From positions 1 through 34,754 of the forward strand of contig CAMVOG010000001.1 in assembly GCA_947169005.1 (NCBI GenBank): 34,754 nt of DNA, in the 5' to 3' direction. This stretch comes from an uncultured Clostridia bacterium. Lineage in GTDB: Bacteria > Bacillota > Clostridia > Oscillospirales > Oscillospiraceae. Shown one piece after another: positions 10,611 through 25,464 of the stretch. The number at the start of each line of letters is the position of its first letter. Position 1 is the stretch's first letter. A program made the translations under genes and the position numbers. The notes under the pieces are model-generated. The model saw only the letters and a list, made by a program, of their open reading frames with translations, ran no database searches and was not told the origin of the DNA.

Positions 10611-10664
10611 GCTGCCTGCGGGAACGGGCCGCCGGCGCTTTCTGCGCTTTCTCCGTCGGCGGCC

Positions 10665-10693
10665 TTGAAAACGCTTCCGATGATCGGTATAAT
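10665..10693 (+). promoter_or_regulatory. Near-consensus sigma-A promoter of the three-gene sensory operon
   Basis: TTGAAA (10665..10670), exactly 17 nt, then TATAAT (10688..10693). Confidence 0.6.
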
Positions 10694-10749
10694 TGTTTAT
10701 AACGCGGAAGAAAAACGGGTCTGTACGGACCGGATTGGAAAGAACGGGT

Positions 10750-12417
10750 ATGGGTGAAGCAAAAAAGACTCTCCGGCGGATGGGCTTTTACTATCTGCTG
10801 ATGGCGATCAATATCATCCCCTGCGCAAACGTGATTCCAGACAGCTTTCCCACCCGGAATCTGTCTACGATCTATCTGCTGATCCTGTGCGTGTGCCTCG
10901 TATTGTATTACGCCCACAGGGTATCTCCGGCCGGCCGCCTTTCGGCCATGATGATGTCGCTTTCATGGATGGCGCTGCTTCTGATCCTGCTGCGCGGGCT
11001 GAAGTACAGCGTTTTTTCCGAGGTCGGCGTTCTGGCCCGGCATATCTGGTACCTGTACTACGTTCCGCTGCTCCTGCTCCCTCTGTTTTTGTTCTATATC
11101 TCTCTTCTCGTCGCGTCGAAGGAATCGACGCGCGGCTCCCGGCTGTGGTGCGGGGCGCTGGTACTGACGGTTCTGTTTATCGCCCTGGTTCTGACGAACG
11201 ACGCGCACCAGCTTGTTTTCCGCTTTCAGCCGGGGTTCCGGCACTGGGACGACAGCTATTCCCACGGCTGGCTCTTTTACACCGTTACGGTCTGGCAATA
11301 TGCGCTCTATCTGGCGGGCATTCTGATCCTGGTGCGCAAATGCCGCGTCAGCAGCGCGAAAAGGAACGCATGGCTCCTTCTGATCCCCTTCGCGTTCGGG
11401 ATCGCCGCGAGCGTGCTTCTGATCACGGGAAAGATGCCGAAGCTGGGCGGCACCAACGCCATCGAGTTTCCCGAGACGCTGATTTTAACGGTTGCGGCCG
11501 TGCTGGAGTGCTGCATGCAGCTGGGGCTGATCCCCACGAACACCGACTACGGAAGGCTGTTTCAGCATTTTTCCATCGCCGCGCAGATCACCGACCAAAA
11601 GGGGAACCCGGTCTACGCCTCCGATTCCGCGGCGCCGCTGACCCCGGCGCAATTTGCCATGGAGGACGGCGGGCGCATGGACGCGCATACCGCGCTGCAT
11701 AAGAAAGCGCTCCCCGGCGGCTTCGGCTTCTGGCAGGACGATCTTACAGAGCTGGACCGGCTGAACGAGGCGCTGGAGGAGGCGAAGGAGGGCCTGGCGC
11801 AGGAGGGAGAGCTGATCCGCCTGCGCGGCGAGCTGAAGGAACGCCGGACGAAGCTGGAGCAGCGGACGCTGGTGTATGACGCCATCGCCCGGCAGACCCA
11901 GAGACAGTCCCGGCTGATCTCCGAGCTGGCGCGGTCCGGCCGCGCGGCAGCGGATGCGGCTGCCAGGGACGCTTGCCGCAAGCGGATCATTCTGCTGGCC
12001 GCCTATATCAAGCGCTACGCGAATCTGATGCTGCTTTCCCGTGAGAGCGGCACGGTGGACGCCGGTGAGCTGGGGCTCTCGTTCGCGGAGCTGCTTCGCC
12101 GCCTGATCGACTGCGGGACCCCCTGTGAGCTCATCCAGAGCGGGGACGGCCTCCTGCCCGCGGAGGCGGCGCTCGCCGTCTTTGAGGCCTTTGAATCACT
12201 GCTGGAGGAAAACGAGGCCTCCCTCCGGGGCGTATTCGTCAAGCTCTCCGCTCACGGGCAGGCGACGCTCAAGCTGACCCTGGAAGATCTGACCGTGCCG
12301 CTTTCCGCCGTCATGGAAGCGCGTCTGCGGCAGTGCGGCGTCGGGCTCGAAAGTCAGCGGGAGGAAAACGTGAGCTACCTATGCTTCACCCTGCCGAAGG
12401 GAGGCGAGCGGGCATGA
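10750..12417 (+). CDS. 7-8 TM sensor-like membrane protein with a coiled coil and a degenerate kinase-like C-terminus
   Basis: About 555 aa from ATG 10750. It has eight hydrophobic segments, then 'DDLTELDRLNEALEEAKEGLAQEGELIRLRGELKERRTKLEQ'. I see no H-box His and no N/G ATP-binding boxes. Its stop overlaps the next start (ATGA). Confidence 0.75.
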   Translation: MGEAKKTLRRMGFYYLLMAINIIPCANVIPDSFPTRNLSTIYLLILCVCLVLYYAHRVSPAGRLSAMMMSLSWMALLLILLRGLKYSVFSEVGVLARHIWYLYYVPLLLLPLFLFYISLLVASKESTRGSRLWCGALVLTVLFIALVLTNDAHQLVFRFQPGFRHWDDSYSHGWLFYTVTVWQYALYLAGILILVRKCRVSSAKRNAWLLLIPFAFGIAASVLLITGKMPKLGGTNAIEFPETLILTVAAVLECCMQLGLIPTNTDYGRLFQHFSIAAQITDQKGNPVYASDSAAPLTPAQFAMEDGGRMDAHTALHKKALPGGFGFWQDDLTELDRLNEALEEAKEGLAQEGELIRLRGELKERRTKLEQRTLVYDAIARQTQRQSRLISELARSGRAAADAAARDACRKRIILLAAYIKRYANLMLLSRESGTVDAGELGLSFAELLRRLIDCGTPCELIQSGDGLLPAEAALAVFEAFESLLEENEASLRGVFVKLSAHGQATLKLTLEDLTVPLSAVMEARLRQCGVGLESQREENVSYLCFTLPKGGERA

Positions 12418-13661
12418 CGGCCTTTGCTTCTCTCTCCGCCCTTGCGCGGGCGCTCTTTGCGCTCTGGGCCCTGCTCCTCTGTCTTGCCAATATCGGCAGC
12501 GCGGTGCTCTCATCGGTCAGACGGCGGTTTCGCTTTGCCGCGCTGGCCCTGCTGCTCTTCCTGCCGGTATATTTCCTGTGGCAGGTGATCTTCGATCTCT
12601 CCCTGTCCCACAGAGGGGGCACCGCCGTCCCGCTCAGCGTGGCCCTGGGCGGCATTCCGCTGATCGCCTGGCTGCCGGTGTTCGCCCTGCTGACAGCGGC
12701 CTCCGCCGTTCTGTTTCTCCGCAATCTCCGTTATGACAGGACCTTCCTTACCCCGGGCACGATCAAGCTCTTCCTTGACGGGCTCCCCTGCGGCGTCTGC
12801 TGCTGGGAGGACAGCGGAAGGGTCCTCTTTTCCAACGTGTGCATGAATCGCCTCTGCGCCGCCGTGACGGACGGTCCGCTGCTCAACGGCAATCAGTTTT
12901 GGGAGGCGGTCTCCGCCAGGATCCTCACCCTGGATGGGACGGTGTGGCGTTTTTCCTGCCGGGAAATGGATCTGGACGGCCAACGTCTGCATGAGATGAT
13001 CGCCTCGGACGTTACGGCGGAATACGCCAAGACCATGACCCTGGAGCGGGACAGGGTGGAGCTGGCCCGGCTCAACGAGCAGCTTCGCAGCTACTATCTC
13101 AGCATCGACGAGGTCGTGAGCCGGCAGGAGGTTTTGCAGGCAAAGGTGAACATCCACGACGAGATGAACCGGCTGATGCTTTCCACGACCGCCGCGGACG
13201 CCGCAGACGAGGAGGAGCTGGACCGGGTCTTCTCCCTGTGGGAGCAAAACGCCCTGCTGCTGTGCATGGAGGCCGGCAGCGACCGGGATACCCGGGCAAT
13301 CGACAGCCTGGAGCAGCTTGCCGCGGCGCTCAGACTCCGGCTCGTCTGGCAGGGCGAGCTGCCGGAGGCCCTTTCGGAGCGGCAGCGCAGTCTGTTCTTT
13401 TCCGCCGCGCAGGAGGCCATGGCCAACGCCGTCAAGCACGCGGAGGCCAAAGCCGTGACGCTGTCCTTTGACGAGAGCGAGGCGGCGCTTTGCTGCCGCT
13501 TTTCCAACGATGGGAAGGCGCCCCCCGGCCCGGTGAGCTTTACCGGAGGGCTGCGGAATCTTGCGCTCCTGGCGGAGCAGCAGGGCGCGTCCGTTTCGGT
13601 CAGCGCCGAAAACGGCTTTACCCTCTCCCTCTGCTTTCCGAAACATCAACCGAACGGCTGA
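12414..13661 (+). CDS. Sensor histidine kinase (HisKA_3/NarX-DesK type)
   Basis: 415 aa from ATG 12414. It has N-terminal TM segments, an H-box-like 'KVNIHDEMNRLML' and an ATPase region 'AAQEAMANAVKHAEA...GGLRNLALLAEQQG'. Confidence 0.85.
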   Translation: MTAFASLSALARALFALWALLLCLANIGSAVLSSVRRRFRFAALALLLFLPVYFLWQVIFDLSLSHRGGTAVPLSVALGGIPLIAWLPVFALLTAASAVLFLRNLRYDRTFLTPGTIKLFLDGLPCGVCCWEDSGRVLFSNVCMNRLCAAVTDGPLLNGNQFWEAVSARILTLDGTVWRFSCREMDLDGQRLHEMIASDVTAEYAKTMTLERDRVELARLNEQLRSYYLSIDEVVSRQEVLQAKVNIHDEMNRLMLSTTAADAADEEELDRVFSLWEQNALLLCMEAGSDRDTRAIDSLEQLAAALRLRLVWQGELPEALSERQRSLFFSAAQEAMANAVKHAEAKAVTLSFDESEAALCCRFSNDGKAPPGPVSFTGGLRNLALLAEQQGASVSVSAENGFTLSLCFPKHQPNG

Positions 13662-13717
13662 TGCGCTTTTGCGCCGCATCGGGTAAACTGACAGAAAAAC
13701 CGGAAGGAGGTGCCGAA

Positions 13718-14356
13718 GTGGCGTACCGTGTTTTGATCGTGGAGGACCAGGCCATCCCGCGGGAGCTGTTTGAGATCTACGTCCACGCTTCCCCGCAGTT
13801 TGAGCACGTGCTCTCGATCGCCAACGCCTCGGCGGCCCTCTCGGTCTGCCGGAACAACGCGGTGGATCTGATATTGATGGACGTGATGACCGAGCTGGGG
13901 CAAAGCGGACTGGACGCGGCGGAGCAGATCAAGCGGGAGTTCCCGCAGATCAGGATCATCATCGTCACCTCCATGCCCGAGTATTCCTGGCTCAGCCGGG
14001 CGCGGAGGATCGGGGTGGATTCCTTCTGGTACAAGGACGGCCACAAGGACGGCATTCTGGACGTGATGGAGCGGACCATGGCGGGGGAGCACATTTATCC
14101 GGACGAGACCCCTCTCATCCGCATCGGCAACACCACCAACCGGGAATTCACCGAACGGGAGCTGGAGATCCTCAAGGAGCTGACCACCGGAGATACCAAC
14201 GCCGAGATCGCCCGGCGGCTCTGCGTATCGGTGGCCACGGTCAAAAGCCACATCCTGCATCTGATGGAGAAGACCGGCTTCCGGACCCGCACGGAGCTGG
14301 TATCCGAAGCCAGGGGACTGGGCATCGTGATCAAGGACAGGCGGGAGGAAGAATAG
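13718..14356 (+). CDS. NarL/LuxR-family response regulator
   Basis: GTG 13718 lies 7 nt after GGAAGGAGG (13702..13710); ATG 13661 is an alternative. REC domain 'RVLIVEDQ...DLILMDV', LuxR HTH 'LTERELEILKELTTGDTNAEIARRLCVSVATVKSHI'. Confidence 0.9.
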   Translation: MAYRVLIVEDQAIPRELFEIYVHASPQFEHVLSIANASAALSVCRNNAVDLILMDVMTELGQSGLDAAEQIKREFPQIRIIIVTSMPEYSWLSRARRIGVDSFWYKDGHKDGILDVMERTMAGEHIYPDETPLIRIGNTTNREFTERELEILKELTTGDTNAEIARRLCVSVATVKSHILHLMEKTGFRTRTELVSEARGLGIVIKDRREEE

Positions 14357-14374
14357 CGTTTTTCCATACGGATC

Positions 14375-14403
14375 GGCCGGACGCGCATGCCGCGCGTCCG
14401 GCC
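14375..14403 (+). repeat. GC-rich palindromic element, copy 1
   Basis: 12-bp stem GGCCGGACGCGC / GCGCGTCCGGCC with loop ATGCC and no T tract. Its 27-nt core (14376..14402) recurs at 14562..14588. Confidence 0.7.
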
Positions 14404-14431
14404 GTGTGTCGACAAAGTGTCGACGCACGGC

Positions 14432-14468
14432 GTAAGAAGGGAAAATCAAACCGATTTTCCCTTCTTAC
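14432..14468 (+). other. Perfect 16-bp hairpin in the leader region
   Basis: GTAAGAAGGGAAAATC (14432..14447) / GATTTTCCCTTCTTAC (14453..14468), loop AAACC. Confidence 0.7.
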
Positions 14469-14480
14469 ATAGATGAAAAC

Positions 14481-14506
14481 GTGAGGGGGAGTCCCCTCCC
14501 CCTCAC
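14481..14506 (+). other. 11-bp G/C hairpin in the leader region
   Basis: GTGAGGGGGAG / CTCCCCCTCAC with a 4-nt loop. Confidence 0.7.
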
Positions 14507-14561
14507 AGACCCCCATGCGAATCCGCAAGGGTCAGTTTATGTTTACGTTTGTTTACAGTCT

Positions 14562-14594
14562 GCCGGACGCGCATGCCGCGCGTCCGGCTTTCTT
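14562..14594 (+). terminator. GC-rich palindromic element, copy 2, with a T tract (terminator/attenuator-like)
   Basis: The 27-nt core is identical to 14376..14402 and is followed by TTTCTT. It lies about 100 nt upstream of the giant-gene ATG. Confidence 0.5.
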
Positions 14595-14695
14595 ATGGCA
14601 AAAATCAGCCGATCGGTTGATGCGGGGCAGAGAGCCTTCTGCTATGCTTACAATTGGGTTATACTACAACGCTCAAACAGAACGGAGGTCCGCAT

Positions 14696-17600
14696 ATGAA
14701 GAATCATCCCATCCGGCGCGCCCTCAGCGTGGTGCTGAGTCTGGTCATCGTGCTTGCGCTGATCCCGGCGATCTCACCGACGGCCTTTGCCAATATGCAT
14801 TATCACGGCCATGAAGTCAACGGCGACAGCGTGACGCTGTACTATTCCTGCAACACCTGCGGCGCGGATTATGAGGTCGACGCGAGCCTCGAGGATTATA
14901 TCAATGACGGCTGGCTGCCGATCATCGAGGCGGACTGCACCGACATTGAGCTGAACACCGACTATTGCCAGATGTGTTTTATGGACCACGTCTGTATGGA
15001 GTGTCTGACGCCCATAGAGGAGTGCGAATCGTTCTGCTACAACTGCCACCAGTGCTGGGACTGTGAGAACGATAATCACTGCAGAAGATGCGGCCAGTGC
15101 ACCAACGAGATGTGCGAGGATTGCCTGGAGGTCGATATCCATCTCTGCGTGGACTGCCACGAGGACTACTCCAAGTGCGAGGGCTGCGGCCGCTGCCTCT
15201 ACGCGCTGATGAAAACGGAGGAGGTCTGCTTCAACGAGCAGATCCGGGATACGCATTGCACGACCTGCGACGAGCCCTGGGTCTGCATCGAATGCGGATA
15301 CTGCTTCTATCATCGCGAGGAGTGGTTCTGCTCAACCTGCGATATGTGCCTGGAATGCGCGCGAGAAGCGGGCATGCACTGCAAAAGCTGCGTCGGCTGT
15401 TTTGACAGCGAGGTGGAGCTCTGCGAGGAAAGCGGAGAGCTCTGCCTGGACTGCTGCGTCGAGGCCGGCAACCACTGCGAGATCTGCGGCGATCACGTCG
15501 ACGAGTGGTGCGAGGGCGGGAAGGACTGCCGCCACTGCGCCGACTGCGCGATGGATCAGGGCTGGATCTGTGAAAGCTGCGGCCAATGCGTCATCTGCAA
15601 CGGCCTGGAAAACTGCGAGGACTGCGGCTACTGCATGGAGTGCTGCCTGGAAAACCGGGCGGACGCCGGCTGCGAATGCCTGGAGTTCTGCCCGGAAAGC
15701 GCGGATTTTGAGAACGAGGAGCATATGTGCGCCCAGTGCATGGCGCATTTCTCCTGCGAAAATGATTTCTGCGAGTTCTGCGGCCTCTGCGAGGATTGCT
15801 GCCGGGATAACGCCGAGGCGGAGGGCTGCGTCTGCGGCCTCTGCGTGGAGGACGGTGAATTCGACCAGCACGTCTGCTCGCAGTGCGGCGAGCCCACCTG
15901 TACCCGCGGCGATTTCTGCGACGTCTGCGGCCTCTGCGCGTCCTGCTGCCTGGAAAATTCCGAGGCGGCGGGCTGCTCCTGCGGCATCTGCGTGGAGAGC
16001 GACGAGTTTGAGGACGCGTTCCACAAGTGCAGCGGCTGCGGGGCGCGCTTTTCCTGCAGCGTGGATTTCTGCGAGAGCTGCGGCCTGTGCGCATACTGCT
16101 GCAAGGACGATCCTGCCGAGGTGCAGTACCACGGCAGCAATACCGAGCCCGGCACGATCTTCCTGCAGCCCTCCGACCGGACGAGGGCCGTTTCCCGCAA
16201 TAACGTCTACGACCGCGCGGAAAACACGGTCTCCTTCCGCGTCCGGGCCTATGATCCCCTGGGCGGCCTGCGGTATCAGTGGTACTATACGGTGGACGGC
16301 GGCGAGCCGGTGAAATTAGTGAACGCCGGTCATACCATCGAAGCATACGGCGAAACGCTCGTCCTTGTGGGTGGCGCGGAGACGGATACCCTGACCGTCG
16401 CCGTTCCCTGCGACGCCTGCCACAGGGAGTACCGTTATTTCTGCGTCGTTTCGGACGGCGGCGGAACGGTGCTCTCCACCTCCGAGGGCGCGCGGCTCTA
16501 TGGCAGGCACAGCTTCGCCTGGCAGCGCCTTGACGACGAGTACCATCAGCAGATCTGCGTGGGCGAGGGCTGCGGCGAGACCGAAGGCGGCATGAAGAAG
16601 GCCCACGAGATCGGCCCCTGGAGATTCGTGAGCTATGCCACCGCCACCCAGGGCGCCAGAATGGCGCGGAGCTGCAGCGTCTGCGGCAGCGTCTGCGAGA
16701 GCACGGTCACGGAGCCCCTCGGCGCCGACCACACGGCCCACGATTACGTCTATACCCCGGTGATCGGCACGAACGCCGACGGCGATCCCGTCTCTCACGC
16801 CCACGTCAGACTCTGCCGCTGCGGCAGACAGGACGGCGGAGAAGAAGCCCACGTCTGGGGTATGTGGATCGTCACCCAGCCCGCCACGGAGAACAAAAAG
16901 GGCTCCAAATACCACGACTGCCTGCTCTGCCATTACCGGGAGACGGTAGAGATCCCGCGCCAGACCCACGAGCACCTCTGGAACCTCCACGACTATGAGG
17001 CGGAGTTCTATCGCGGCGGATACAGCAGCAAATCCCACTTCCAGTACTGCGGCGACCCGGACTGCAACGCCGTCGCCTTCGTGGAGCCCCACGTCTATTC
17101 GAGCTGGAGCTGGCAGACGGAGACCGGCACGCCCAACCTGGGCCTGAAGGACGCGACGATCAAGCGGACCTGCGAGATCTGCGGCTACGTGCAGGAAAAG
17201 ATCATCCACAAGGATTATCGCCCGCTCTGCTTCCAGAACGCCAACCTCACCGCCGTTTCCGCCGACAACCGCTGGAGCAGCAATAAGTATACCCGCAGCG
17301 TCACGGCGGCCCCGCCTCCGGGCTACTATTTTACCTACTGGGAAAACGTGGGGCAGGGCCCCATCAAGTTTGAGGAATACCATGAGGAGGTCCCCTATCT
17401 GGGCACCGTCTGGAAGACCTATACCAAGACTGACGAGACCATCGTGATCTCTCTGGATAACTTTGACGCGGACGGAAACTACCTCCCGCTGGAAACCATC
17501 TACGAGCTGCGCGCCAACGTGGAGCGCTATGACAACAACGTCATCCTGTACGATACGAATCGCAGCCCGGTCTATACCCTGACCCCGGAGGAGGATATGG

Positions 17601-20600
17601 CGGACAACGGGCTCTTCGGCGCCCCGGCCGTGAAGGACGAGGCCAGTCTCATGGGCGCGGACCACGGCGTGATCTGGTATGAGTCCCAGACGGAGGACGA
17701 ATACGGCTACCGCACCGTGACCCTGCATCTGAACGGTTATGACGGCGGCGCCATCGAGCTGGAGGACACGGGGCTGCCCTGCAATCTCCACATCATCGTG
17801 GACGGGGATTCCGATATCACCACCACCGGGCAGCAGGGCATTCTGGGCTGCCTGACGGGCGGCGACGTGACCGTTTCCTCCCCCAACGGCTCAGAGCTGC
17901 GCATCAACGTGCGCAGCGGCAAGGAGGACTGCTACGGCATCCGCACGGGCCGCGCGAGACAGTACCACAGCGACAAGCTCACCCTCTGCGGCAGCGTCAG
18001 CGTGCAGATCAACGTGACCAACACCTTCGGCAGCTCCCTGGGCGCGGCCTACGGGCTCTACTCCAACTCCTGGGTGGCGCTGGAGGAGGACGCCTCGGCG
18101 GAGATCACCGTCGGCAGCTACGCCTACGACGTGGCCTATGACGGGCAGGTGCTCGTTTCGGCGGCGGCCATCCACGCGGACAAGGAGCTGCAGCTCAACA
18201 CCACCGGGCATCTCTTTATCGACGCCTCCAACGTGGACGTTGCCAACGGGCGGAAGGGCCTGGGGATCGACGCCAAGAACACCCTGATCGACAACGTGGG
18301 CCAGATGGAGATCACCTATCCCGCAAACACCCGGAATGCCTATAATCACGCGCCGACCTATGACCCGCAGCGCTTCATATTCCTCGCCTCCGACGACGGC
18401 ATGAGGCGCTTCGTCAAAAACGGCGTCGCCGTGTCCGTTCACCCGGTCAGGCATCTGCTGGTCGAGCCGGGTTATCCCGTGCACTTCGATGTGGCTGAGG
18501 GCGGGACGCTGAACGTGGAGAGCGTTTATCAGAATGCCGCCGGGGACTATCTGGTGCGGCCCGGGGACAGCCTTGTTTTCTACACGGCCCCGGCGCCGGG
18601 ACGCTGCAACGAGACCGTGCTCGTGGACGGGAGCTTCGTCAAGCCCGGCGCCTCCGACGACGGCGTGCGGACGAAATACGTGCTGGAAGCGGTGAACGGC
18701 CCCCACACGGTGAAGGTGGGCAATGGGGTGCTCTTTGTGCCCTTCGCCTCCCAGCCGAAGCTGTCCCAGACGGACGTGTTCTTCGGCAGTGAGGCTTATC
18801 TCACCTACCGCATGAACGACGTACTGCAGGCGCTGAAGAGCCATGAACAGTTCGGCGGCAGCGCCTCGGCCGACCCGAAGTTTGCCGTACAGGGGCAGAG
18901 CGGCAGCTACAGCGGCGGCAAACCGCTCAGCGGCAGCCAGACCATCAACCGGGTATTCCTGCAATACAAAAACGAGCTCAGCGGCGAGTTTGAAAACACC
19001 GGCGTCAGCTTCACGCCCACGATCCTCGGCAGCGTCAGCTTCACCGACGAAAAGAACGCCGCGGCGCTGAAAACCGTCCGCTATCGCCTGATGGTGCTGT
19101 ATGACGGCATGGAGTACACCTCCGACGAGTTTACCGTCCACTGGACGGACGACCCTAACGACGCGCCGGAGAAGATGACCGCGGCGGTGGAGCTCTACAT
19201 AAAGAACGGCAAATTTGCAAACGGTGCGAGCTGCTATGACGGCGGCGCCTGGGTGCGGCTGGACAGTAAAACCGACGTGCTGGTTTACGACGTTTCGGGC
19301 AGCGAATGGTTCGGCCGCGCCATGTCCGGATCGGACTACGCCCGAAACAGAAAAACGGGCGACCTGATCCTCTTCGCGGAGTTCGATTACCACACCGGCG
19401 TTCTCACGCTCTTCGGCGATCATTACTACGTCGATTTTGACGGCGACGGTGAAGAGGAGTGGTACGACCTCGGCGGAGAGATCGCGGCGATCCGCGTGCC
19501 GGAGGAGGACGCCGCGGGAACGCTCGTCATCAACGTGCAGGACGACACCTGGATAGAGGGCGATTACGACGCCTTCGGCTGGGACGCCTGGAACTACGGC
19601 GACGGCAGCCTCGTCCGCGGGCAGCAGCTCTACGCCCAGACCGACCTGATCGTCAATGAAAACGGCGGCGTCCGCGTCACGTCGAAGAGCGGCGCGGTGC
19701 TCGACCTGGACCGCTGCGGCAGCATGCTCCACGAATCGGAAGCGAGGGAATACGCCGGCATCCGCGCCTCCGGTGATATCAGCATAGAGGGCGACGTGAG
19801 CGTGCAGATCGGCATCGGCCTCAACAGCCTCTCCGTCTGGTGGAACAACTACGGCGCGGACCGCTATGGCCTTGTAAGCGAGGGCGCGGTCACCGTCCGG
19901 GACACCGCTTATCTGCGGGTCCGCTTCACAGCGCCCGAGGGCAGGCACATGATCGGCGCCGCCACGGGCATCCACGCGGCGGAGATCATGCTTACGGGCG
20001 ATTCCGTGACGGAGCTGGACTGCAGCTCCGACAGCGTCCACGATAACGTTACCTGTTACGTCCTCTCCACGGAGGCTCTCAGCGTTATGGAGAGCGCCGG
20101 GCTCACGGTTACGGCGCAGGGCGATATCCCCATCCCCATCTGGGTGGATGGCGATATCCTCCTCGCCACCGACGACACCGTGACCGTAAACGCTCTGGGC
20201 AGCGGCGAGGCCACGAACTGCTTTGAGTACGCGGGCGAAATGCACATCATGGCGCCCACGGCCCTCAAGGCCGCCTACCGGGACGGCACGGAGGACGCCG
20301 GCCTCGTGTATTACCTTGAGCCCGTCCTGGACGGCGACTTCGTCATCTATCACAGAGCGGGCAGCGAAACGGAGAACGGGCTTGCCTCGGAGCAGTACTA
20401 TCCCGGCGTTCCCTACGCCGTCACAGTGAATACCGACCCCGGCGTGGACACCAACAACGAATACACCGGCTACGAGGAGAAGTACCCCTCCCACAGCGTG
20501 ACGGTAGAGCGCGGGGGCGCTGCCCTCTACACCCGGACGGGTACGCCGGAGAGCCTCGACGTCTGCGCGGGCGACCGGGTGACCTACACCGCGGCGGAGC

Positions 20601-23521
20601 CCATCACCGGTTATGCCTTCGGCGGCTGGGCGCTCACGTCGAACCTGACGCCCGAGGAGCTGGTGATCGAGGGCCGCTCGATCTCCTTCACCATGCCGGA
20701 TCGGGACGTTTCCCTCCACGCGGTCTATACCTGCGAGGCCTTCAGCGCCGAGCCGCCGCTCTTCGTCTTTACGGACAGCGACGCCACCGAGGGGCTCCTT
20801 TACTGGCGGGTCGATACCGAAATCCCGTCGGTCCAAGCCGTGGTGCTGGAATATCTCACGGAAAACGAGAACGGCGAGAGCCAATGGACCCCCCTCTACC
20901 GCTACGAGGACGGCGCCTGGCAGGGCTGGGATATGAAGGAGGACATGCAGACCTGTACGAACGGCACGACCGGCGAGCGCTACTACGCGGGGGTCTCGCG
21001 CATCGGCCGCGCCGGGGTGAGCGCGCTTCCAAGGACCGTGAACACGGACGTATCCACGACCTACCGCCTCTATTTCTGGGGCAACGTGGAATATTACAGC
21101 CAACCCTTTACCATCGACCCGAAAAACGGCGTCCACGTTCTTCTCTCGCAGGACGCCGCGTCTCCCGACCTCGTGATCCCCGCGGATTACGTCGGGACGG
21201 AATATACCGTCGATCTGTCAAGATACCTCTACGCGGATTACGGCAGCATGAGCTATTCGGTAACTCTCGGCGACCTCTTCGGCCCGCTGGACGGCGGCGT
21301 GTGCGAGGCGAGCGTATTTGAAAACGGGATGCTGCGCTTCGTCCGCAACGGTGCGCATGGGCCCATCTACGGCATAGAGGGCTCCGCCTGCGTCACCGCG
21401 ACGGACGGGAAGAGCGGCAGGTCCTTCCGCATCCCCTTCGATTTCGGCGATATCTACGACGCCGAGGTCTATCCGCTGATCGTTTCCGGCAGGAAGGTCA
21501 GCTCCCACAACAAGGACGACGTCCTTGGGGACGGCACGGTCTCCTATGACCCGGAGACCAAGACCCTTACGCTGGAAAACGCCGCGCTGGACGAGCTCTA
21601 TCCAATGCCCTCCGACGGCGGGCTGCCCGGCGCGGCCTACGCGGTCGTGGCCGCGCGGGATCTGACCGTCCGTCTGATCGGCGAGAACGTCATTTCCGCC
21701 GACGCCAGCTCCTACTGCCACGGCCGGGCCGACCACAGCTTCAACGGCCCCATCGTCGGCATCGGCAACGCGATCAACGAGGCCTGGCGGCCCTCTCTGA
21801 CGGAGGAGGACAGCTTCGCCATCACCTTTGAGGGCCCCGGCTCGCTCTCGATCCGGGTCGGCGGGGATTCCGGCGCCGCGATCCACGCCATCGGTGACGT
21901 GACCGTGAACGGCGCGGAGCTGACGCTGCGCGCCGGCTACAGCGGCCTCACTTCGGAGAACGGTTCCTTTATCATGAACGCCGGAACGGTGGATATCGAT
22001 ACCGCGCAGATGAGCTGCGTCGAGCTCTCCGGCAGCACGGCCCGCTTCACGGTGAACGGCGGCACGCTGCGGCTGAACGGCGGCACGGACAGCTATGCGG
22101 TATCCATGAGCGCCACTGACTATCAGAACGCGGAGTATTTCCAGCTCTATGACGGCGAGCTGCTCCTGCAGACCAAATCGGCAGCCTGGGACCTGAGTAG
22201 CCGCGATATGTACTACACCGATTGGATGTACAAGGCCCTGGACGCGGAGGGGAACGACGCCCACGACGCCGTGGAGGCGCCCGCCACGATCCGGACGCTG
22301 GATTATCTGAAATTCATCCGGATCTACCCCATCTGGGTCAACGGCGAGCAGTTCACCTCGGAGCATCTGACCGTTGCCTGCGGCTACGGCAGCGCCGTCT
22401 ATGAGCCGACAACGAACACGGTCGCGCTCAACAGCGCGAAGATCACCAGAGGCGTCGCCTATTGGTGGGGCGGCGAGATGGCCTCGGGCATCTATGCCCA
22501 GCAGCCTGTCAAGCTCAGTCTCTCCGGCTTCAGCACGATCGACCTGTCCTCCAGGACCTATCTGGACCGGAACGGCCGACCCTATGAGCTTCTGGATGAA
22601 GAGACGGAGAACGGCCGGAAGCTGTATGGCCTGTACGTTGACAACGTCTATGAGGCCGCGGACCCCGTCCTTGACCTTTGCGGGGCGGGAAGCCTCACGG
22701 TCAAGGGCGTGCAGACCGGCATCGAAACCAACGCCGTGCCGATCTCCGTGAACGGCCCCAGGCTGAACATTGCGGGCTGTGAGGGCGGCATCAGCGCCGA
22801 TATGACGGTGAACGCCGGCGCACTCACGATCGCGGCCTCGGCCTACGGCATTTACGGAACGTTGGATACGGCTCAGTATGGGCCTCTCTACGCCTACGGC
22901 GGCGCGACGCGGGACGAGAGCGTTCTGCTCGAGCTGGAGGAAACCGGGGCGGCGACGGATCGGGGCTGGGGCTATAGCTTCCCGTATTTCAGACTCGGCG
23001 GCTCTGAATGGAGCGTCGCCGGGGCGCAGGTAAGCGGCACGGCGGCGAGCTGGAACGACGTGGACGACGCGGTGTATCTGCTCTGCTCCTCCGCCGTTTC
23101 CGAGGCGGATATCCGGGCCGCGTGGGAAAACGGCAGCTACGCGGCGCTCCCGGGCGCCGCAGTCCCCGCGGAGAAGGGCGGGATCAGCGCCGCCGCCGTG
23201 GACGGCAGGGCGATGTACGCCCAGAACTTCTCCTTCTCCGGCGTGGCGGAGGGCGACTATAAGCTGGCCGTCTGCAAGCCGGACCATTATCCCCTGATCA
23301 CGGCGGTGACCGTTGCCGGTGATACGGCGCTGGGAACGCTGCGGCTCACGCTGCGCGGCGACGTGAACGAGGACGGACAGGCAGACCTTGCAGACGTCCG
23401 CCTGCTCTTCCACGCCGCCTCCGGCGCAGAGACGGCATCCGGCCCGGCGGCAGACGAGAACGGGGACGGCCGCGTGAACAACCGGGATGCGATTCTTCTT
23501 TTCCGCCGGATCGTATCATAA
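14696..23521 (+). CDS. Giant (2,941 aa) secreted multidomain protein: hyper-Cys CxxC region, Ig-like, His/Cys modules, beta-helix-like repeats, C-terminal dockerin
   Basis: ATG 14696 follows GGAGG (14684..14688). The signal peptide is 'MKNHPIRRALSVVLSLVIVLALIPAISPTAFA'. The frame stays open for 8.8 kb and ends in 'GDVNEDGQADLADVRLL...DENGDGRVNNRDAILLFRRI', a pair of dockerin Ca-binding repeats. Confidence 0.9.
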   Translation: MKNHPIRRALSVVLSLVIVLALIPAISPTAFANMHYHGHEVNGDSVTLYYSCNTCGADYEVDASLEDYINDGWLPIIEADCTDIELNTDYCQMCFMDHVCMECLTPIEECESFCYNCHQCWDCENDNHCRRCGQCTNEMCEDCLEVDIHLCVDCHEDYSKCEGCGRCLYALMKTEEVCFNEQIRDTHCTTCDEPWVCIECGYCFYHREEWFCSTCDMCLECAREAGMHCKSCVGCFDSEVELCEESGELCLDCCVEAGNHCEICGDHVDEWCEGGKDCRHCADCAMDQGWICESCGQCVICNGLENCEDCGYCMECCLENRADAGCECLEFCPESADFENEEHMCAQCMAHFSCENDFCEFCGLCEDCCRDNAEAEGCVCGLCVEDGEFDQHVCSQCGEPTCTRGDFCDVCGLCASCCLENSEAAGCSCGICVESDEFEDAFHKCSGCGARFSCSVDFCESCGLCAYCCKDDPAEVQYHGSNTEPGTIFLQPSDRTRAVSRNNVYDRAENTVSFRVRAYDPLGGLRYQWYYTVDGGEPVKLVNAGHTIEAYGETLVLVGGAETDTLTVAVPCDACHREYRYFCVVSDGGGTVLSTSEGARLYGRHSFAWQRLDDEYHQQICVGEGCGETEGGMKKAHEIGPWRFVSYATATQGARMARSCSVCGSVCESTVTEPLGADHTAHDYVYTPVIGTNADGDPVSHAHVRLCRCGRQDGGEEAHVWGMWIVTQPATENKKGSKYHDCLLCHYRETVEIPRQTHEHLWNLHDYEAEFYRGGYSSKSHFQYCGDPDCNAVAFVEPHVYSSWSWQTETGTPNLGLKDATIKRTCEICGYVQEKIIHKDYRPLCFQNANLTAVSADNRWSSNKYTRSVTAAPPPGYYFTYWENVGQGPIKFEEYHEEVPYLGTVWKTYTKTDETIVISLDNFDADGNYLPLETIYELRANVERYDNNVILYDTNRSPVYTLTPEEDMADNGLFGAPAVKDEASLMGADHGVIWYESQTEDEYGYRTVTLHLNGYDGGAIELEDTGLPCNLHIIVDGDSDITTTGQQGILGCLTGGDVTVSSPNGSELRINVRSGKEDCYGIRTGRARQYHSDKLTLCGSVSVQINVTNTFGSSLGAAYGLYSNSWVALEEDASAEITVGSYAYDVAYDGQVLVSAAAIHADKELQLNTTGHLFIDASNVDVANGRKGLGIDAKNTLIDNVGQMEITYPANTRNAYNHAPTYDPQRFIFLASDDGMRRFVKNGVAVSVHPVRHLLVEPGYPVHFDVAEGGTLNVESVYQNAAGDYLVRPGDSLVFYTAPAPGRCNETVLVDGSFVKPGASDDGVRTKYVLEAVNGPHTVKVGNGVLFVPFASQPKLSQTDVFFGSEAYLTYRMNDVLQALKSHEQFGGSASADPKFAVQGQSGSYSGGKPLSGSQTINRVFLQYKNELSGEFENTGVSFTPTILGSVSFTDEKNAAALKTVRYRLMVLYDGMEYTSDEFTVHWTDDPNDAPEKMTAAVELYIKNGKFANGASCYDGGAWVRLDSKTDVLVYDVSGSEWFGRAMSGSDYARNRKTGDLILFAEFDYHTGVLTLFGDHYYVDFDGDGEEEWYDLGGEIAAIRVPEEDAAGTLVINVQDDTWIEGDYDAFGWDAWNYGDGSLVRGQQLYAQTDLIVNENGGVRVTSKSGAVLDLDRCGSMLHESEAREYAGIRASGDISIEGDVSVQIGIGLNSLSVWWNNYGADRYGLVSEGAVTVRDTAYLRVRFTAPEGRHMIGAATGIHAAEIMLTGDSVTELDCSSDSVHDNVTCYVLSTEALSVMESAGLTVTAQGDIPIPIWVDGDILLATDDTVTVNALGSGEATNCFEYAGEMHIMAPTALKAAYRDGTEDAGLVYYLEPVLDGDFVIYHRAGSETENGLASEQYYPGVPYAVTVNTDPGVDTNNEYTGYEEKYPSHSVTVERGGAALYTRTGTPESLDVCAGDRVTYTAAEPITGYAFGGWALTSNLTPEELVIEGRSISFTMPDRDVSLHAVYTCEAFSAEPPLFVFTDSDATEGLLYWRVDTEIPSVQAVVLEYLTENENGESQWTPLYRYEDGAWQGWDMKEDMQTCTNGTTGERYYAGVSRIGRAGVSALPRTVNTDVSTTYRLYFWGNVEYYSQPFTIDPKNGVHVLLSQDAASPDLVIPADYVGTEYTVDLSRYLYADYGSMSYSVTLGDLFGPLDGGVCEASVFENGMLRFVRNGAHGPIYGIEGSACVTATDGKSGRSFRIPFDFGDIYDAEVYPLIVSGRKVSSHNKDDVLGDGTVSYDPETKTLTLENAALDELYPMPSDGGLPGAAYAVVAARDLTVRLIGENVISADASSYCHGRADHSFNGPIVGIGNAINEAWRPSLTEEDSFAITFEGPGSLSIRVGGDSGAAIHAIGDVTVNGAELTLRAGYSGLTSENGSFIMNAGTVDIDTAQMSCVELSGSTARFTVNGGTLRLNGGTDSYAVSMSATDYQNAEYFQLYDGELLLQTKSAAWDLSSRDMYYTDWMYKALDAEGNDAHDAVEAPATIRTLDYLKFIRIYPIWVNGEQFTSEHLTVACGYGSAVYEPTTNTVALNSAKITRGVAYWWGGEMASGIYAQQPVKLSLSGFSTIDLSSRTYLDRNGRPYELLDEETENGRKLYGLYVDNVYEAADPVLDLCGAGSLTVKGVQTGIETNAVPISVNGPRLNIAGCEGGISADMTVNAGALTIAASAYGIYGTLDTAQYGPLYAYGGATRDESVLLELEETGAATDRGWGYSFPYFRLGGSEWSVAGAQVSGTAASWNDVDDAVYLLCSSAVSEADIRAAWENGSYAALPGAAVPAEKGGISAAAVDGRAMYAQNFSFSGVAEGDYKLAVCKPDHYPLITAVTVAGDTALGTLRLTLRGDVNEDGQADLADVRLLFHAASGAETASGPAADENGDGRVNNRDAILLFRRIVS

Positions 23522-23672
23522 TGCTTATGCCTGTTTGCGGAGACTGCCCAAAGCGCACCGGACTCAATACGCGGCGCACTGTATCAAAGCATAGTTTCTT
23601 TTCCAGCATGAACGGCGTGGGCCGGTAGTCCTTCAGCTTGGGATAGTTCGCCGGTCGCTTTTCCCGCGCCAT

Positions 23673-23818
23673 TAGGCGTCACCTCCCAGCAGGGCCTCCA
23701 TCTCATCCTCGCTGTCCCTGCCAGTGGTATCCGCCACGATGCGGGAGCGGGACGCAGGCGTCAGGCCGAACTGCTCGGCAACGGTGACCGGCAGCACCTT
23801 CAGTTCAGCGGTCTTCAT
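23673..23818 (-). pseudogene. 48-codon ORF resembling the C-terminus of a P27-type small terminase subunit
   Basis: AGGAGGA precedes ATG 23818. It reads 'MKTAELKVLPVTVAEQFGLTPASRSRIVADTTGRDSEDEMEALLGGDA'. Its TAA overlaps the next ATG (TAATG at 23672), which opens a truncated ORF. Confidence 0.35.
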
Positions 23819-24035
23819 TGGTATCCTCCTTCTGCAGGTTGGCGATATGCCGGTTGATGTACCACACGGCCTTCTGCAAATCCTCCACAGTCTTTGCAGG
23901 GTCTTTCTTCCCGGCGCGGGAAATATACTTCACGGCGTTGCCGAGGTGGTATCCGAGGCGCTTGTCCTCGATGTAGTCGATGACCTCAATGGCTCCGTCC
24001 GTGTAATGAGCGGGATGGTTAATCGGGTCGTTCAT
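23805..24035 (-). CDS. DUF3310-family phage protein
   Basis: 76 aa, 'INHPAHYTDGAIEVIDYIEDKRLGYHLGNAVKYISRAGKKDPAKTVEDLQKAVWYINRHI'. GGAGG precedes the ATG. Confidence 0.8.
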   Translation of the reverse strand: MNDPINHPAHYTDGAIEVIDYIEDKRLGYHLGNAVKYISRAGKKDPAKTVEDLQKAVWYINRHIANLQKEDTNEDR

Positions 24036-25389: not shown

Positions 25390-25464
25390 AGCAGAATCCT
25401 CCTTTCGTTGTTCTGCTTTCCTACGCCCAGCACGGCCCCGGATTTACAAAAGAAAACCAAAAAA

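What the first reader, a model, noticed from the sequence alone, without database searches (positions are those of the whole stretch)
14696..23521. 8.8-kb gene for a 2,941-aa secreted, dockerin-tailed mosaic protein with no recognisable catalytic domain
Seen in the sequence: one uninterrupted frame with a strong SD and a Sec signal peptide.

Module order, by reading the translation:
- a hyper-cysteine region
- one 'YQWY' Ig-like domain
- three His/Cys zinc-ribbon-like modules
- 'GYYFTYW' (about 17321) and 'GYAFGGW...VSLHAVYT' (about 20605), Listeria-Bacteroides-type repeats
- more than 1,500 aa of Gly/Asp/Thr/Val-rich sequence with recurring '...YGIR...G(D/S)VSVQI...' segments that resemble beta-helix adhesin passengers
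- a 'GDYKLAVCKPDHYPLITAVTV' beta-sandwich-like segment
- a dockerin

I recognise no enzyme domain. The gene lies directly downstream of, and on the same strand as, a dedicated sensory operon. As a locus this is the most unusual thing in the window.
Basis: partly seen in the sequence, partly recalled or inferred. Interest (0 to 1): 0.85.

Follow-up and report, generated by a model that had tools for sequence, protein, structure and literature searches.

The report
Giant surface protein, cysteine-packed tip
This is a real 2,941-residue secreted protein of a rumen Ruminococcaceae-type bacterium that is tethered to the cell surface by a dockerin, carries sugar-binding-type beta-helices, and ends in a 430-residue tip that is 20% cysteine; that tip matches no family in the domain and structure libraries searched and recurs in hundreds of giant surface proteins of gut anaerobes.

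Summary
An ATG at 14696 behind GGAGG opens a 2,941-aa frame with a Sec-type signal peptide. The gene is not an assembly chimera, because colinear full-length homologues occur in independent assemblies.

Module order:
- hyper-Cys head (87 Cys, 44 CxxC)
- Ig-like domain
- three His/Cys modules homologous to the putative zinc-binding stalk domains of the Thomasclavelia ramosa IgA protease
- Flg_new_2 repeats
- two pairs of beta-helix modules, one pair in Pfam family Cthe_2159 (pectate-lyase-like, carbohydrate-binding)
- beta-sandwich plus dockerin

No enzyme domain was found here or in 29 diverse relatives. The family hallmark is the N-terminal head + Ig + zinc-module triad. The C-terminal anchor is interchangeable (dockerin, SLH, CWB2, membrane anchor). 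The head profile matches 154 clusters at E<=1e-10, in Firmicutes and Bacteroidaceae. It has no Pfam, NCBIfam or PDB relative.

Best reading: a surface-displayed, non-catalytic adhesin or polysaccharide-binding protein with a metal-stabilised (probably zinc) tip.

The sensor operon sits behind a terminator. It travels with the gene in the closest relatives but is absent from five more distant loci. The protein is a new variant of a known kind, and its head function is unknown.

The parts
14684..14688 (+). Shine-Dalgarno GGAGG, 7 nt before the ATG
   Evidence: Read directly from the sequence. Conserved in L007, L013 and L001.
14696..23521 (+). CDS of the 2,941-aa protein (stop codon included)
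   Evidence: There are 32 homologues, including full-length colinear ones.
14696..14791 (+). Sec-type signal peptide, aa 1-32 (cleavage after AFA)
   Evidence: Read from the translation. Comparable N-termini occur in most homologues.
14828..16135 (+). Hyper-cysteine, acidic head, aa 45-480 (Cys at aa 52-469), with ~51-aa units CxxCGxCxxCC...CxCxxC...HxCxxC...C
   Evidence: Composition and motif counts. 47 invariant Cys in 17 sequences. 82 Cys and 18 His conserved columns in 73 sequences. AlphaFold2 pLDDT 78.3. No Pfam, NCBIfam, PDB or Foldseek relative.
16145..16510 (+). Ig-like domain with the 'YQWY' and 'YxC' motifs, aa 484-605
   Evidence: Motif conserved in the alignment of 29 diverse members. 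Weak Ig VL hits in PDB. Weak I-set hit at the equivalent position of P0073.
16511..17230 (+). Three His/Cys modules, aa 606-845, homologous to ZBD1/ZBD2 (CTD2/CTD4) of the T. ramosa IgA protease
   Evidence: phmmer against 9qa6_A: E=6.6e-10, two stretches, His/Cys positions aligned. Domain descriptions in PMC12237041 and PMC12415215.
17246..17470 (+). Flg_new_2-like beta-sandwich #1 ('GYYFTYW'), aa 851-925
   Evidence: Pfam 13.7 bits, sub-threshold. hhalign to copy #2: 75% probability, E=2.5e-5.
17663..18535 (+). Beta-helix-like module A1 ('CYGIRTG...GSVSVQINV'), aa 990-1280
   Evidence: AlphaFold2 all-beta model of short repeated strands. Homologous to A2 (hhalign 97%, E=9e-11). No relatives outside the family.
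18536..19615 (+). Beta-sandwich spacer domains, aa 1281-1640
   Evidence: AlphaFold2 secondary structure. Foldseek gives Ig/Fn3-array-type weak hits.
19628..20470 (+). Beta-helix-like module A2 ('YAGIRASG...GDVSVQIGI'), aa 1645-1925
20483..20740 (+). Flg_new_2 (divergent InlB B-repeat) domain #2, aa 1930-2015
   Evidence: Pfam PF18998, 34.2 bits against a cut-off of 23.6.
20741..21445 (+). Beta-sandwich spacer region, aa 2016-2250
   Evidence: AlphaFold2 covers it up to aa 2110. The rest is inferred from homologue conservation.
21446..22300 (+). Cthe_2159-family beta-helix module B1, aa 2251-2535
   Evidence: Pfam PF14262, 32.6 bits against a cut-off of 25.8, on the 400-aa tile. The same family is precomputed for homologues.
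22301..23095 (+). Cthe_2159-like beta-helix module B2, aa 2536-2800
   Evidence: Weak Pfam hit, 16 bits. hhalign to B1: 96.8%, E=2.3e-10.
23108..23350 (+). Small beta-sandwich ('GDYKLAVCKPDHYPLITAVTV'), aa 2805-2885, forming a cassette with the dockerin
   Evidence: Weak CarboxypepD_reg hit, E=0.13. The same cassette occurs in P0016 and P0028.
23357..23512 (+). Type I dockerin with two Ca-binding loops (DVNEDGQADLAD and DENGDGRVNNRD), aa 2888-2939
   Evidence: Pfam PF00404, 29-32 bits against a cut-off of 22.9. PDB dockerin hits. Loops read from the sequence.
14562..14588 (+). Terminator-like hairpin followed by a T-run, between the response-regulator gene and the giant gene; a second copy of the stem lies at about 14378-14404
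   Evidence: The hairpin is present once in L007 and L013.
14589..14683 (+). Conserved promoter-proximal / 5' leader region of the giant gene
   Evidence: Conserved in L007 and L013, and in L001, which lacks the sensor operon. No Rfam family matches.
10693..14356 (+). Upstream sensor operon: HisKA_7TM membrane protein, a ~415-aa protein with a weak HATPase_c match, and a LuxR/GerE response regulator
   Evidence: Pfam. The same three genes lie upstream in L007 and L013.
10637..23781 (+). 13.1-kb block (sensor operon plus giant gene), 98-99% identical to L007 while both flanks differ
   Evidence: blastn of L007 against the window.

Best explanation
The gene encodes a ~300-kDa, non-catalytic, surface-displayed adhesin-like or polysaccharide-binding protein of a rumen Ruminococcaceae/Oscillospiraceae-type bacterium.

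Proposed mechanism, with each step marked as shown or inferred:
1. The protein is exported unfolded through Sec. This is inferred from the signal peptide.
2. Its C-terminal type I dockerin, with both Ca2+ loops intact, plugs into a cohesin of a scaffoldin or anchoring protein. The domain is shown; the partner is inferred.
3. A long chain of beta-sandwich spacers and four right-handed beta-helix-type modules projects from the cell. The domain order is shown; the extended shape is inferred. Two of these modules belong to the Cthe_2159 carbohydrate-binding, pectate-lyase-like family and would offer long grooves for plant cell-wall polysaccharides such as pectin or cellulose. That role is inferred from the family.
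4. The cell-distal N-terminus carries the family's conserved triad. It consists of three rod-like His/Cys modules of the kind predicted to bind structural zinc in the T. ramosa IgA protease stalk, an Ig-like domain, and a 430-aa head with about 100 conserved Cys/His positions.
5. I propose that the head folds around roughly 25 tetrahedral metal (most likely Zn2+) sites. This would give a rigid, protease-resistant and disulfide-independent tip suited to the reducing rumen. The tip would be the specific ligand-recognition or contact surface. The metal, the fold and the ligand are all inferred.
6. In this lineage the neighbouring 7TM-kinase / LuxR two-component system probably regulates the gene from its own promoter downstream of a terminator. 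This is inferred.
For: Gene reality and colinearity.

Dockerin above the Pfam cut-off, with both DxNxDGxxxxxD loops intact.

The anchor is interchangeable while the N-terminal triad is kept. Relatives end in dockerin, SLH, a membrane anchor, CWB2, choline-binding or LRR_5 modules. This fits a protein whose conserved business end is held away from the cell.

Cthe_2159 assignment. [quoted passage not shown]

Paired homologous beta-helix modules and an all-beta AlphaFold2 model. The best Foldseek matches are an autotransporter passenger, Ig arrays and a streptococcal adhesin, with no enzyme fold.

No enzyme domain in any of 29 diverse family members.

His/Cys modules homologous to the IgA protease ZBD/CTD2-4 'periscope' domains, with ligand positions aligned.

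Head properties:
- 47 invariant Cys in 17 sequences.
- 82 Cys and 18 His conserved columns in 73 sequences, with core columns substituted in 0-2 of 73.
- 44 CxxC motifs.
- Confident AlphaFold2 model made of loops and short helices (pLDDT 78).
- The nearest fold matches, all non-significant, are PHD, RING and E7-CR3 zinc fingers.
- Sec-type rather than twin-arginine signal peptides across the family.

Regulatory link: the sensor operon and the gene form a 13.1-kb block that stays intact while its flanks differ. A secreted GH88/GH105-type protein lies nearby in both strains.
Against: No binding, localisation or expression data exist.

The Cthe_2159 match covers only part of the model (positions 93-218 of 262). 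It was not reported in the whole-protein scan, only in the tiles.

The two central beta-helix modules have no characterised relative, so a catalytic role cannot be excluded.

Metal identity is untested. I could not inspect the model coordinates, so Cys4 clusters and disulfide pairs were not distinguished. The co-substitution analysis was uninformative.

A profile of the head gives weak, composition-biased hits to polyferredoxins (E about 0.02).

No cohesin was seen in the window.

The neighbourhood is not conserved beyond close relatives.
Confidence: 0.55

Rival explanations
1. The protein is an enzyme. One or more of the four beta-helix modules would be a divergent polysaccharide lyase or glycosidase, and the rest of the protein would be targeting and spacer domains. 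It would work with the nearby secreted GH88/GH105-type hydrolase, which processes the unsaturated products of lyases.
For: Cthe_2159 belongs to the pectate-lyase-like superfamily. A secreted GH88-family protein lies within about 6 kb in the window and directly beside the block in L007. Dockerin proteins are often enzymes (general knowledge of cellulosomes).
Against: No lyase or hydrolase family is matched in Pfam, NCBIfam or PDB sequences, or by Foldseek for the central 1,190 aa. None of 29 family members carries an enzyme domain. The papers read here describe Cthe_2159 as a carbohydrate-binding, polysaccharide-lyase-like protein and report no catalytic activity for it. The GH88 linkage is absent from other homologue loci.
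Confidence: 0.15
2. The hyper-Cys head is a disulfide-knotted domain, like the CxxC-rich surface coats of Giardia or EGF/furin-like repeats, rather than a metal-binding one. In this reading it serves as a tough protective or adhesive tip.
For: CxxC-rich extracellular coats exist in an anaerobic gut eukaryote. Their zinc content was reported as substoichiometric (PMC2996952). The AlphaFold2 model cannot distinguish the two chemistries without its coordinates.
Against: Conserved His occupy fixed positions next to the CxxC pairs. There are 18 conserved His columns, several substituted in only 1-4 of 73 sequences. Histidine has no role in disulfide knots. The adjacent modules are of a type predicted to bind Zn through 2His+2Cys. 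The habitat is strongly reducing, and anaerobic Firmicutes generally lack extracytoplasmic disulfide-forming systems; both statements are my background knowledge and were not tested here. Pfam's Giardia VSP family is not matched.
Confidence: 0.15
3. The head is an extracellular metal sponge. It would be a metallothionein-like store or scavenger for Zn, Cu, Ni or Co at the cell surface in sulfide-rich rumen fluid, and the rest of the protein would merely display it.
For: The head is about 20% Cys and 22% acidic residues, with about 100 candidate ligands. It is always extracellular and N-terminal.
Against: The exact spacing of nearly every Cys is conserved over distant relatives, and the AlphaFold2 fold is confident. 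This points to structural sites rather than labile storage. No metal transporter is linked in any of the contexts examined.
Confidence: 0.08
4. The head carries iron-sulfur clusters and acts as an extracellular polyferredoxin, transferring electrons at the cell surface.
For: The repeated motif CxxCGxCxxCC contains the ferredoxin-like spacing CxxCGxCxxxC. The head profile gives its best PDB sequence hits to polyferredoxin FwdF (E=0.017) and to a 4Fe-4S protein (E=0.023). Sulfide and Fe(II) are abundant in the rumen (general knowledge).
Against: Those hits carry as much composition bias as score. Foldseek finds no ferredoxin fold even though the model is confident. The 'CP' of the ferredoxin motif is absent. 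Signal peptides are Sec-type, and many lack the twin arginine needed to export folded cofactor proteins. Conserved His fit Zn sites better.
Confidence: 0.05
5. The long frame is an assembly chimera or a decaying pseudogene.
For: The gene is very long, mosaic and from an uncultured organism. Its closest species-representative genome has it split over three contigs.
Against: Full-length colinear copies occur at 98%, 85%, 59%, 58% and 55% identity in independent assemblies from several sources. The frame is uninterrupted, and its GC content matches the flanks.
Confidence: 0.01

Closest known systems
Zinc-binding stalk domains ZBD1/ZBD2 (= CTD2/CTD4) of the Thomasclavelia ramosa M64 IgA protease (PDB 9qa6; PMC12237041, PMC12415215)
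   Same: The three His/Cys modules at aa 606-845 are sequence homologues (E=6.6e-10), and the His and Cys ligand positions align. In both proteins the modules are extracellular parts of a Gram-positive surface protein. In the protease they are proposed to be rigid, zinc-stabilised 'periscope' spacers.
   Different: In the protease they lie between a catalytic domain and a sortase anchor, and they are dispensable for catalysis. Here there is no protease domain. The modules sit near the distal N-terminus, directly after the hyper-Cys head and the Ig-like domain. Zinc binding remains a prediction in both proteins.
Cthe_2159 of Clostridium thermocellum (Pfam PF14262), a polysaccharide-lyase-like beta-helix that binds carbohydrates
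   Same: Module B1 scores above the Pfam cut-off, and B2 is homologous to B1. Both proteins come from a cellulosome-type Firmicute context. The expected fold is a right-handed parallel beta-helix with Ca-dependent glycan binding.
   Different: In the papers read here Cthe_2159 is treated as a single polysaccharide-lyase-like beta-helix protein. In this protein, two such modules make up under 20% of a 2,941-aa mosaic. Only profile positions 93-218 of 262 are matched. Binding specificity was not tested.
Fibrillar adhesins / periscope proteins of Gram-positive bacteria (e.g. SasG/Aap, L. reuteri SRRP with a beta-solenoid binding region)
   Same: All share a signal peptide, a C-terminal cell-surface anchor, a long stalk of beta-sandwich domains, beta-solenoid modules and a distinct distal N-terminal region.
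   Different: The stalk here is heterogeneous rather than made of tandem identical repeats. The anchor is a dockerin rather than LPxTG. The distal region is a cysteine-packed domain with no counterpart in described adhesins.
Giardia variant-specific surface proteins (CxxC-rich, zinc-binding surface coat)
   Same: Both are extracellular, CxxC-dense domains on the surface of an anaerobic gut organism. VSPs are reported to resist proteases and extreme pH and to bind zinc.
   Different: There is no detectable homology, since the Pfam VSP family is not matched. VSPs are described as cysteine-rich, and my recollection (not checked here) is that they contain roughly 12% Cys, against 20% in this head. 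VSPs are eukaryotic membrane proteins and are thought to be largely disulfide-bonded. This is an analogy only.
Non-catalytic dockerin-bearing proteins of rumen Ruminococcaceae cellulosomes
   Same: Both have a type I dockerin at the C-terminus of a large secreted protein without an enzyme domain, in a rumen Ruminococcaceae-type genome.
   Different: In this family the dockerin is one of several interchangeable anchors, and the 85%-identical homologue lacks it. Cellulosome membership is therefore lineage-specific and does not define the family.

Membership tests
Type I dockerin (PF00404) | Profile match above the curated cut-off, at the C-terminus | tested here: met
   29.1 bits (whole protein) and 32.0 bits (tile) against a cut-off of 22.9, at aa 2888-2939. 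PDB dockerins are matched at E=0.005-0.08.
Type I dockerin (PF00404) | Two duplicated segments, each with an EF-hand-like Ca2+ loop (D-x-[ND]-x-D-G-x-x-[ND]-x-x-D) | tested here: met
   DVNEDGQADLAD (aa 2889-2900) and DENGDGRVNNRD (aa 2920-2931), read from the translation.
Type I dockerin (PF00404) | Binds a cohesin of the same organism | not testable with these tools
   No cohesin was found in the window, and the rest of the genome was not available.
Cthe_2159 carbohydrate-binding beta-helix (PF14262) | Profile match above the curated cut-off | tested here: met
   32.6 bits against 25.8 for the tile aa 2321-2720, best stretch at about aa 2376-2514, profile positions 93-218 of 262. The hit is not listed in the whole-protein scan. 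The second module scores only 16 bits but is homologous to the first by hhalign (96.8%).
Cthe_2159 carbohydrate-binding beta-helix (PF14262) | Right-handed parallel beta-helix fold with Ca-dependent binding of cellulosic or pectic polymers | not tested
Binding needs experiments.
Flg_new_2 / divergent InlB B-repeat (PF18998) | Profile match above the curated cut-off | tested here: met
   aa 1956-2012: 34.2 bits against 23.6. The first copy (aa ~866-887) is sub-threshold at 13.7 bits, with hhalign 75% to the second copy.
IgA-protease ZBD / CTD2-CTD4 metal-associated periscope domain | Sequence homology with conserved His/Cys ligand positions | tested here: met
   phmmer E=6.6e-10 to 9qa6_A, with two stretches (chain 909-975 and 1082-1144). 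The pattern H..C..C...H...W...AT...G.K...C..C aligns.
IgA-protease ZBD / CTD2-CTD4 metal-associated periscope domain | Zinc occupancy and an extended rod shape | not testable with these tools
   These are predicted, not solved, even for the protease itself.
Fibrillar adhesin / periscope protein (functional class) | Signal peptide, surface anchor and a stalk of repeated domains | tested here: met
   Signal peptide, dockerin, and beta-sandwich plus beta-helix modules. The stalk is heterogeneous, not a tandem array of identical repeats.
Fibrillar adhesin / periscope protein (functional class) | A distal domain that binds a defined ligand | not testable with these tools
   The hyper-Cys head is the candidate, but no ligand is known.
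Autotransporter / two-partner-secretion beta-helix passengers | C-terminal outer-membrane beta-barrel translocator, or a TpsB partner with a TPS domain | tested here: not met
   The C-terminus is a dockerin, and no translocator family was found. The only link is a weak Foldseek match to EspC (E=7.6e-3, TM 0.09). The resemblance is at fold level only.
Polysaccharide lyases with a beta-helix fold (PL1/3/6/9) | Match to a lyase family profile or to a solved lyase | tested here: not met
   There are no such Pfam, NCBIfam or PDB-sequence hits. No lyase appears among the Foldseek matches for aa 921-2110. The C-terminal pair was not modelled.
2[4Fe-4S] ferredoxin / polyferredoxin | Paired CxxCxxCxxxCP motifs in a ferredoxin fold | tested here: not met
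   The motif here is CxxCGxCxxCC without the Pro. The PDB profile hits at E=0.017-0.023 have bias equal to score. Foldseek finds no ferredoxin.
Giardia VSP (Pfam VSP family) | Profile match | tested here: not met
   No Pfam hit at all in aa 1-690, even at E<=5.

The most novel reading that the evidence does not exclude
The conserved N-terminal head would be a new class of extracellular metal-cluster domain. It would have about 100 fixed Cys/His ligands in about 430 residues. After Sec export into sulfidic, anoxic gut fluid it would load metal spontaneously. The metal might be not only zinc but iron-sulfur clusters, given its ferredoxin-like CxxCGxC spacing. The head would then serve as a redox-active or metal-capturing tip on giant surface proteins of both Firmicutes and Bacteroidota. 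That would be a previously unrecognised route for extracellular electron or metal exchange in gut anaerobes.
Probability: 0.06. Interest if true: 0.9.

Novelty: new variant of a known kind. Interest (0 to 1): 0.55.

Why it matters
Giant surface proteins decide what gut and rumen bacteria stick to, but most are unannotated.

This gene gives a clean, full-length example of a family whose constant part is not the anchor or the stalk. The constant part is an N-terminal triad: a cysteine-packed head, an Ig-like domain and zinc-type rods. The triad is found in hundreds of sequence clusters across two phyla. It matched no family in the Pfam, NCBIfam or PDB searches run here.

If the head is an array of about 25 structural metal sites, it would be one of the densest metal-binding protein domains known. 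It would also be an example of how strict anaerobes build rigid extracellular domains without disulfides.

For rumen biology, a dockerin-tethered protein with four beta-helix modules next to a two-component system is a concrete candidate for regulated attachment to pectic or cellulosic plant material.

Tried and rejected
- NCBIfam scan of the whole protein: no family.
- Pfam on ten 400-aa tiles at E<=5: nothing for aa 1-690, and nothing for aa 871-1850.
- Foldseek of the head model against PDB: no match below E=1.
- Foldseek of the aa 921-2110 model: no match below E=1e-3. The multi-domain model is a poor single query.
- The search for related loci with the single protein: found only one fragmented relative.
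- Profile search with the beta-helix A alignment in the 5.8-billion-protein set: returned only two short fragments. It did not even recover the known homologues, so it says nothing about wider relatives.
- Co-substitution analysis of the Cys/His columns, meant to separate four-ligand sites from disulfide pairs: the core columns hardly vary, and the correlations that do appear follow clades. The result is inconclusive.
- Rfam on the 5' region, looking for a riboswitch of the kind that controls some clostridial adhesins: only chance hairpin matches far below gathering scores.
- Tandem Repeats Finder: no meaningful DNA repeats in the gene.
- Whole-protein self-BLAST: found nothing. Tiled BLAST and hhalign were needed to see the internal duplications.
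- Search for conserved neighbours such as a maturase, radical-SAM enzyme, thiol-disulfide oxidoreductase, metal transporter or cohesin in six homologue contexts: none is shared.
- The ORF at 23724-24146 as a co-transcribed partner: rejected. Synteny with L007 ends inside it, and its composition is not protein-like.

Full report

The window is about 63% G+C across the region. Long spurious ORFs therefore occur, including a 1,081-codon antisense ORF inside this gene. The + strand frame 14654..23521 is nevertheless a real gene.

The first 32 residues have the layout of a Sec signal peptide ending in AFA.

Thirty-two homologues were found. They include a 98%-identical copy of exactly 2,941 aa from an independent assembly. 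Colinear copies at 85, 59, 58, 55 and 48% identity come from several sources. This removes the chimera objection.

The closest species-representative genome is a MAG titled Ruminococcaceae bacterium RUG14283. NCBI labels relatives as Oscillospiraceae or Clostridia MAG proteins.

**2. Anatomy**

*Head, aa 45-480.*
- It has 87 Cys, 16 His and 44 CxxC motifs, with 102 acidic against 21 basic residues.
- Its C-terminal half consists of ~51-aa units of the form CxxCGLCxxCC-x8-CxCxxC-x11-HxCxxC-x5-C.

*Ig-like domain, aa 484-605.*
- It carries the 'YQWY' and 'YxC' motifs.
- These motifs are conserved through the whole family.
- The domain gives only weak Ig hits.

*His/Cys modules, aa 606-845.*
- There are three modules.
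- They match the repeated C-terminal domains of the Thomasclavelia ramosa IgA protease (9qa6_A, E=6.6e-10), and the ligand positions align.
- Two 2025 papers describe those domains as putative 2His+2Cys zinc sites in a new fold. The fold forms an extended rod, and the papers call it a metal-associated 'periscope' spacer.

*Central region.*
- It begins with a sub-threshold Flg_new_2-like domain (aa 851-925).
- Beta-helix-type module A1 (aa 990-1280) follows, then about 360 aa of beta-sandwich domains, then module A2 (aa 1645-1925).
- Next come a bona fide Flg_new_2 domain (aa 1930-2015) and more beta-sandwich sequence.
- The AlphaFold2 model of aa 921-2110 is all-beta, with mean pLDDT 79.5.
- A1 and A2 are homologous (hhalign 97%, E=9e-11).

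*C-terminal third.*
- It holds two further homologous modules, B1 and B2 (hhalign 96.8%).
- B1 passes the Pfam threshold for Cthe_2159 (32.6 against 25.8 bits).
- The papers I could read describe Cthe_2159 as carbohydrate-binding, polysaccharide-lyase-like and Ca-dependent. They also describe related beta-solenoids as adhesive regions.
- The protein ends with a small beta-sandwich and a type I dockerin with both calcium loops intact.

**3. No enzyme**

The following searches gave no catalytic family:
- Pfam on the whole protein and on tiles
- NCBIfam
- PDB sequences
- Foldseek on two models covering 1,660 residues

Pfam scans of 29 diverse family members found only two kinds of domain:
- Anchors: dockerin, SLH, CWB2, choline-binding and Cu_amine_oxidN1.
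- Adhesion or stalk repeats: Flg_new, Flg_new_2, LRR_5, fn3, Big_2/3 and Cthe_2159.

**4. What defines the family**

All 32 first-round homologues have the hyper-Cys region immediately after the signal peptide. It is 430-660 aa long, 17-21% Cys, 18-25% acidic and 1-6% basic.

The C-termini differ:
- dockerin
- SLH
- a membrane anchor
- LRR_5
- a small beta-sandwich tail

The 85%-identical homologue lacks the beta-sandwich-plus-dockerin cassette. Distant relatives P0016 and P0028 share it.

A profile of the head was run over 1.84 billion representative proteins:

| E-value threshold | Matching clusters |
|---|---|
| 1e-3 | 534 |
| 1e-10 | 154 |
| 1e-30 | 61 |

Most matches are 1,000-3,600-aa proteins with the region at the N-terminus. 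One cluster is named as a Bacteroidaceae protein, so the module crosses phyla.

An alignment of 29 diverse members keeps head, Ig-like domain and His/Cys modules in the same order.

In 73 aligned members there are 82 conserved Cys columns and 18 conserved His columns. The core columns are substituted in 0-2 sequences.

**5. What the head is likely to be**

Arguments for tetrahedral metal sites, most plausibly zinc:
- The model is confident (mean pLDDT 78, reaching 93 in its best stretches) and consists of loops, single beta-bridges and short helices.
- It has no significant PDB neighbour. The best matches, all non-significant, are PHD, RING and E7-CR3 zinc fingers.
- Histidines are conserved at fixed positions beside the CxxC pairs.
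- The zinc-type modules are adjacent.
- Export is Sec-type.
- The habitat is reducing (my background knowledge).

About 100 conserved ligands would make about 25 sites.

This remains an inference, for three reasons:
- I could not read the model coordinates.
- The co-substitution test was uninformative.
- The head profile gives weak, composition-biased hits to polyferredoxins (E about 0.02). The motif does contain a ferredoxin-like CxxCGxC spacing.

Giardia VSPs are a compositional analogue. They are not homologues.

**6. Context and regulation**

Upstream lie a HisKA_7TM membrane protein, a ~415-aa protein with a weak HATPase_c match, and a LuxR-type response regulator.

The regulator gene ends at 14356. 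A GC-rich hairpin with a T-run at 14562-14588 precedes a ~95-bp conserved leader. The giant gene therefore most likely has its own promoter.

The window carries a 157-bp insertion that duplicates the hairpin.

Evidence that the pairing is real in this lineage:
- The sensor operon is also present upstream in the 98% strain (L007) and in RUG14283 (L013).
- The 13.1-kb block 10637-23781 is 98-99% identical to L007 while both flanks differ.

Evidence that the pairing is not general:
- The 85% homologue instead follows two other large secreted proteins, although it keeps the conserved leader.
- Four more distant homologues have unrelated neighbours.
- No maturase, oxidoreductase, transporter or cohesin is shared between contexts.

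A secreted GH88/GH105-type protein lies 5.4 kb downstream in the window, and directly beside the block in L007. This is a weak hint of a uronic-acid polysaccharide context.

**7. Verdict**

The protein is best seen as a dockerin-tethered member of an uncharacterised family of giant, non-catalytic surface proteins. This member has Cthe_2159-type glycan-binding modules.

The novel element is the conserved hyper-cysteine head, together with its Ig-like and zinc-rod companions. It matched no family in any library I searched.

As a kind of object, a giant modular surface adhesin or cellulosomal accessory protein, it is known. The tip makes it a new variant. What the head does remains open, and a straightforward metal analysis could test it.

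Noticed in passing
window 14404-14560: A 157-bp insertion, absent from the two closest relatives (L007, L013), sits between two copies of the terminator stem GCCGGACGCGC...GCGCGTCCGGC. It contains two further perfect hairpins (about 14432-14468 and 14480-14507). It could be a small mobile or duplicated element.
   Followed up: partly
window 10637-23781 versus L007 2470-15425: The sensor operon plus giant gene forms a 13.1-kb block that is 98-99% identical between two strains but lies in different surroundings. In L007 the GH88 gene is directly upstream. In the window guaA is upstream, and GH88 lies 5 kb downstream in the same orientation. This is either a rearrangement or a relocatable cassette. 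An assembly artefact in the short L007 contig is not excluded.
   Followed up: partly
window 28899-31106 (-) and 25812-28877 (-): Two more secreted multi-domain proteins lie here. One combines GH88/GH105-type hydrolase + SpaA + Flg_new_2 (735 aa). The other combines SpaA + DUF7507/CARDB + Ig-like domains (1,021 aa). The locus is rich in surface proteins.
   Followed up: partly
window 31500-34754 and 4360-5758: Two low-GC stretches (0.41-0.45 against about 0.63). The first carries TnpV, T5orf172/DUF2924 and small ORFs, and is likely a mobile element. The second encodes two zinc-ribbon proteins, one with DUF6273. An HNH endonuclease gene lies at 24813-25460 (-).
   Followed up: no
L001 2474-9879 (locus of the 85% homologue P0002): Two further large secreted proteins (1,203 and 1,169 aa, no Pfam hits) precede the homologue. 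They share a ~90-aa C-terminal tail with each other (55% identity). By eye that tail resembles the tail that replaces the dockerin in P0002-P0006 and P0012. It is a candidate alternative anchoring or sorting module.
   Followed up: partly
P0038, P0046, P0051, P0053, P0056, P0072, P0073 (family members from the representatives search): Several hyper-Cys-head proteins end in a motif like '...GIYI.DGKKV..K'. To me this resembles the C-terminal sorting domain of Bacteroidota type IX secretion substrates. One such cluster is named as Bacteroidaceae. Pfam did not confirm the sorting domain.
   Followed up: partly
P0199 (338 aa, from a 1.5-kb contig): A fragment 94% identical to part of beta-helix module A1 is annotated with a dockerin domain. 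This hints at a shorter paralogue or a recombinant arrangement in another sample.
   Followed up: no
window 23724-24146 (+): The 140-codon ORF just downstream of the giant gene is probably not a gene. Its translation has an odd composition, and similarity to the sister strain ends inside it at 23781.
   Followed up: yes
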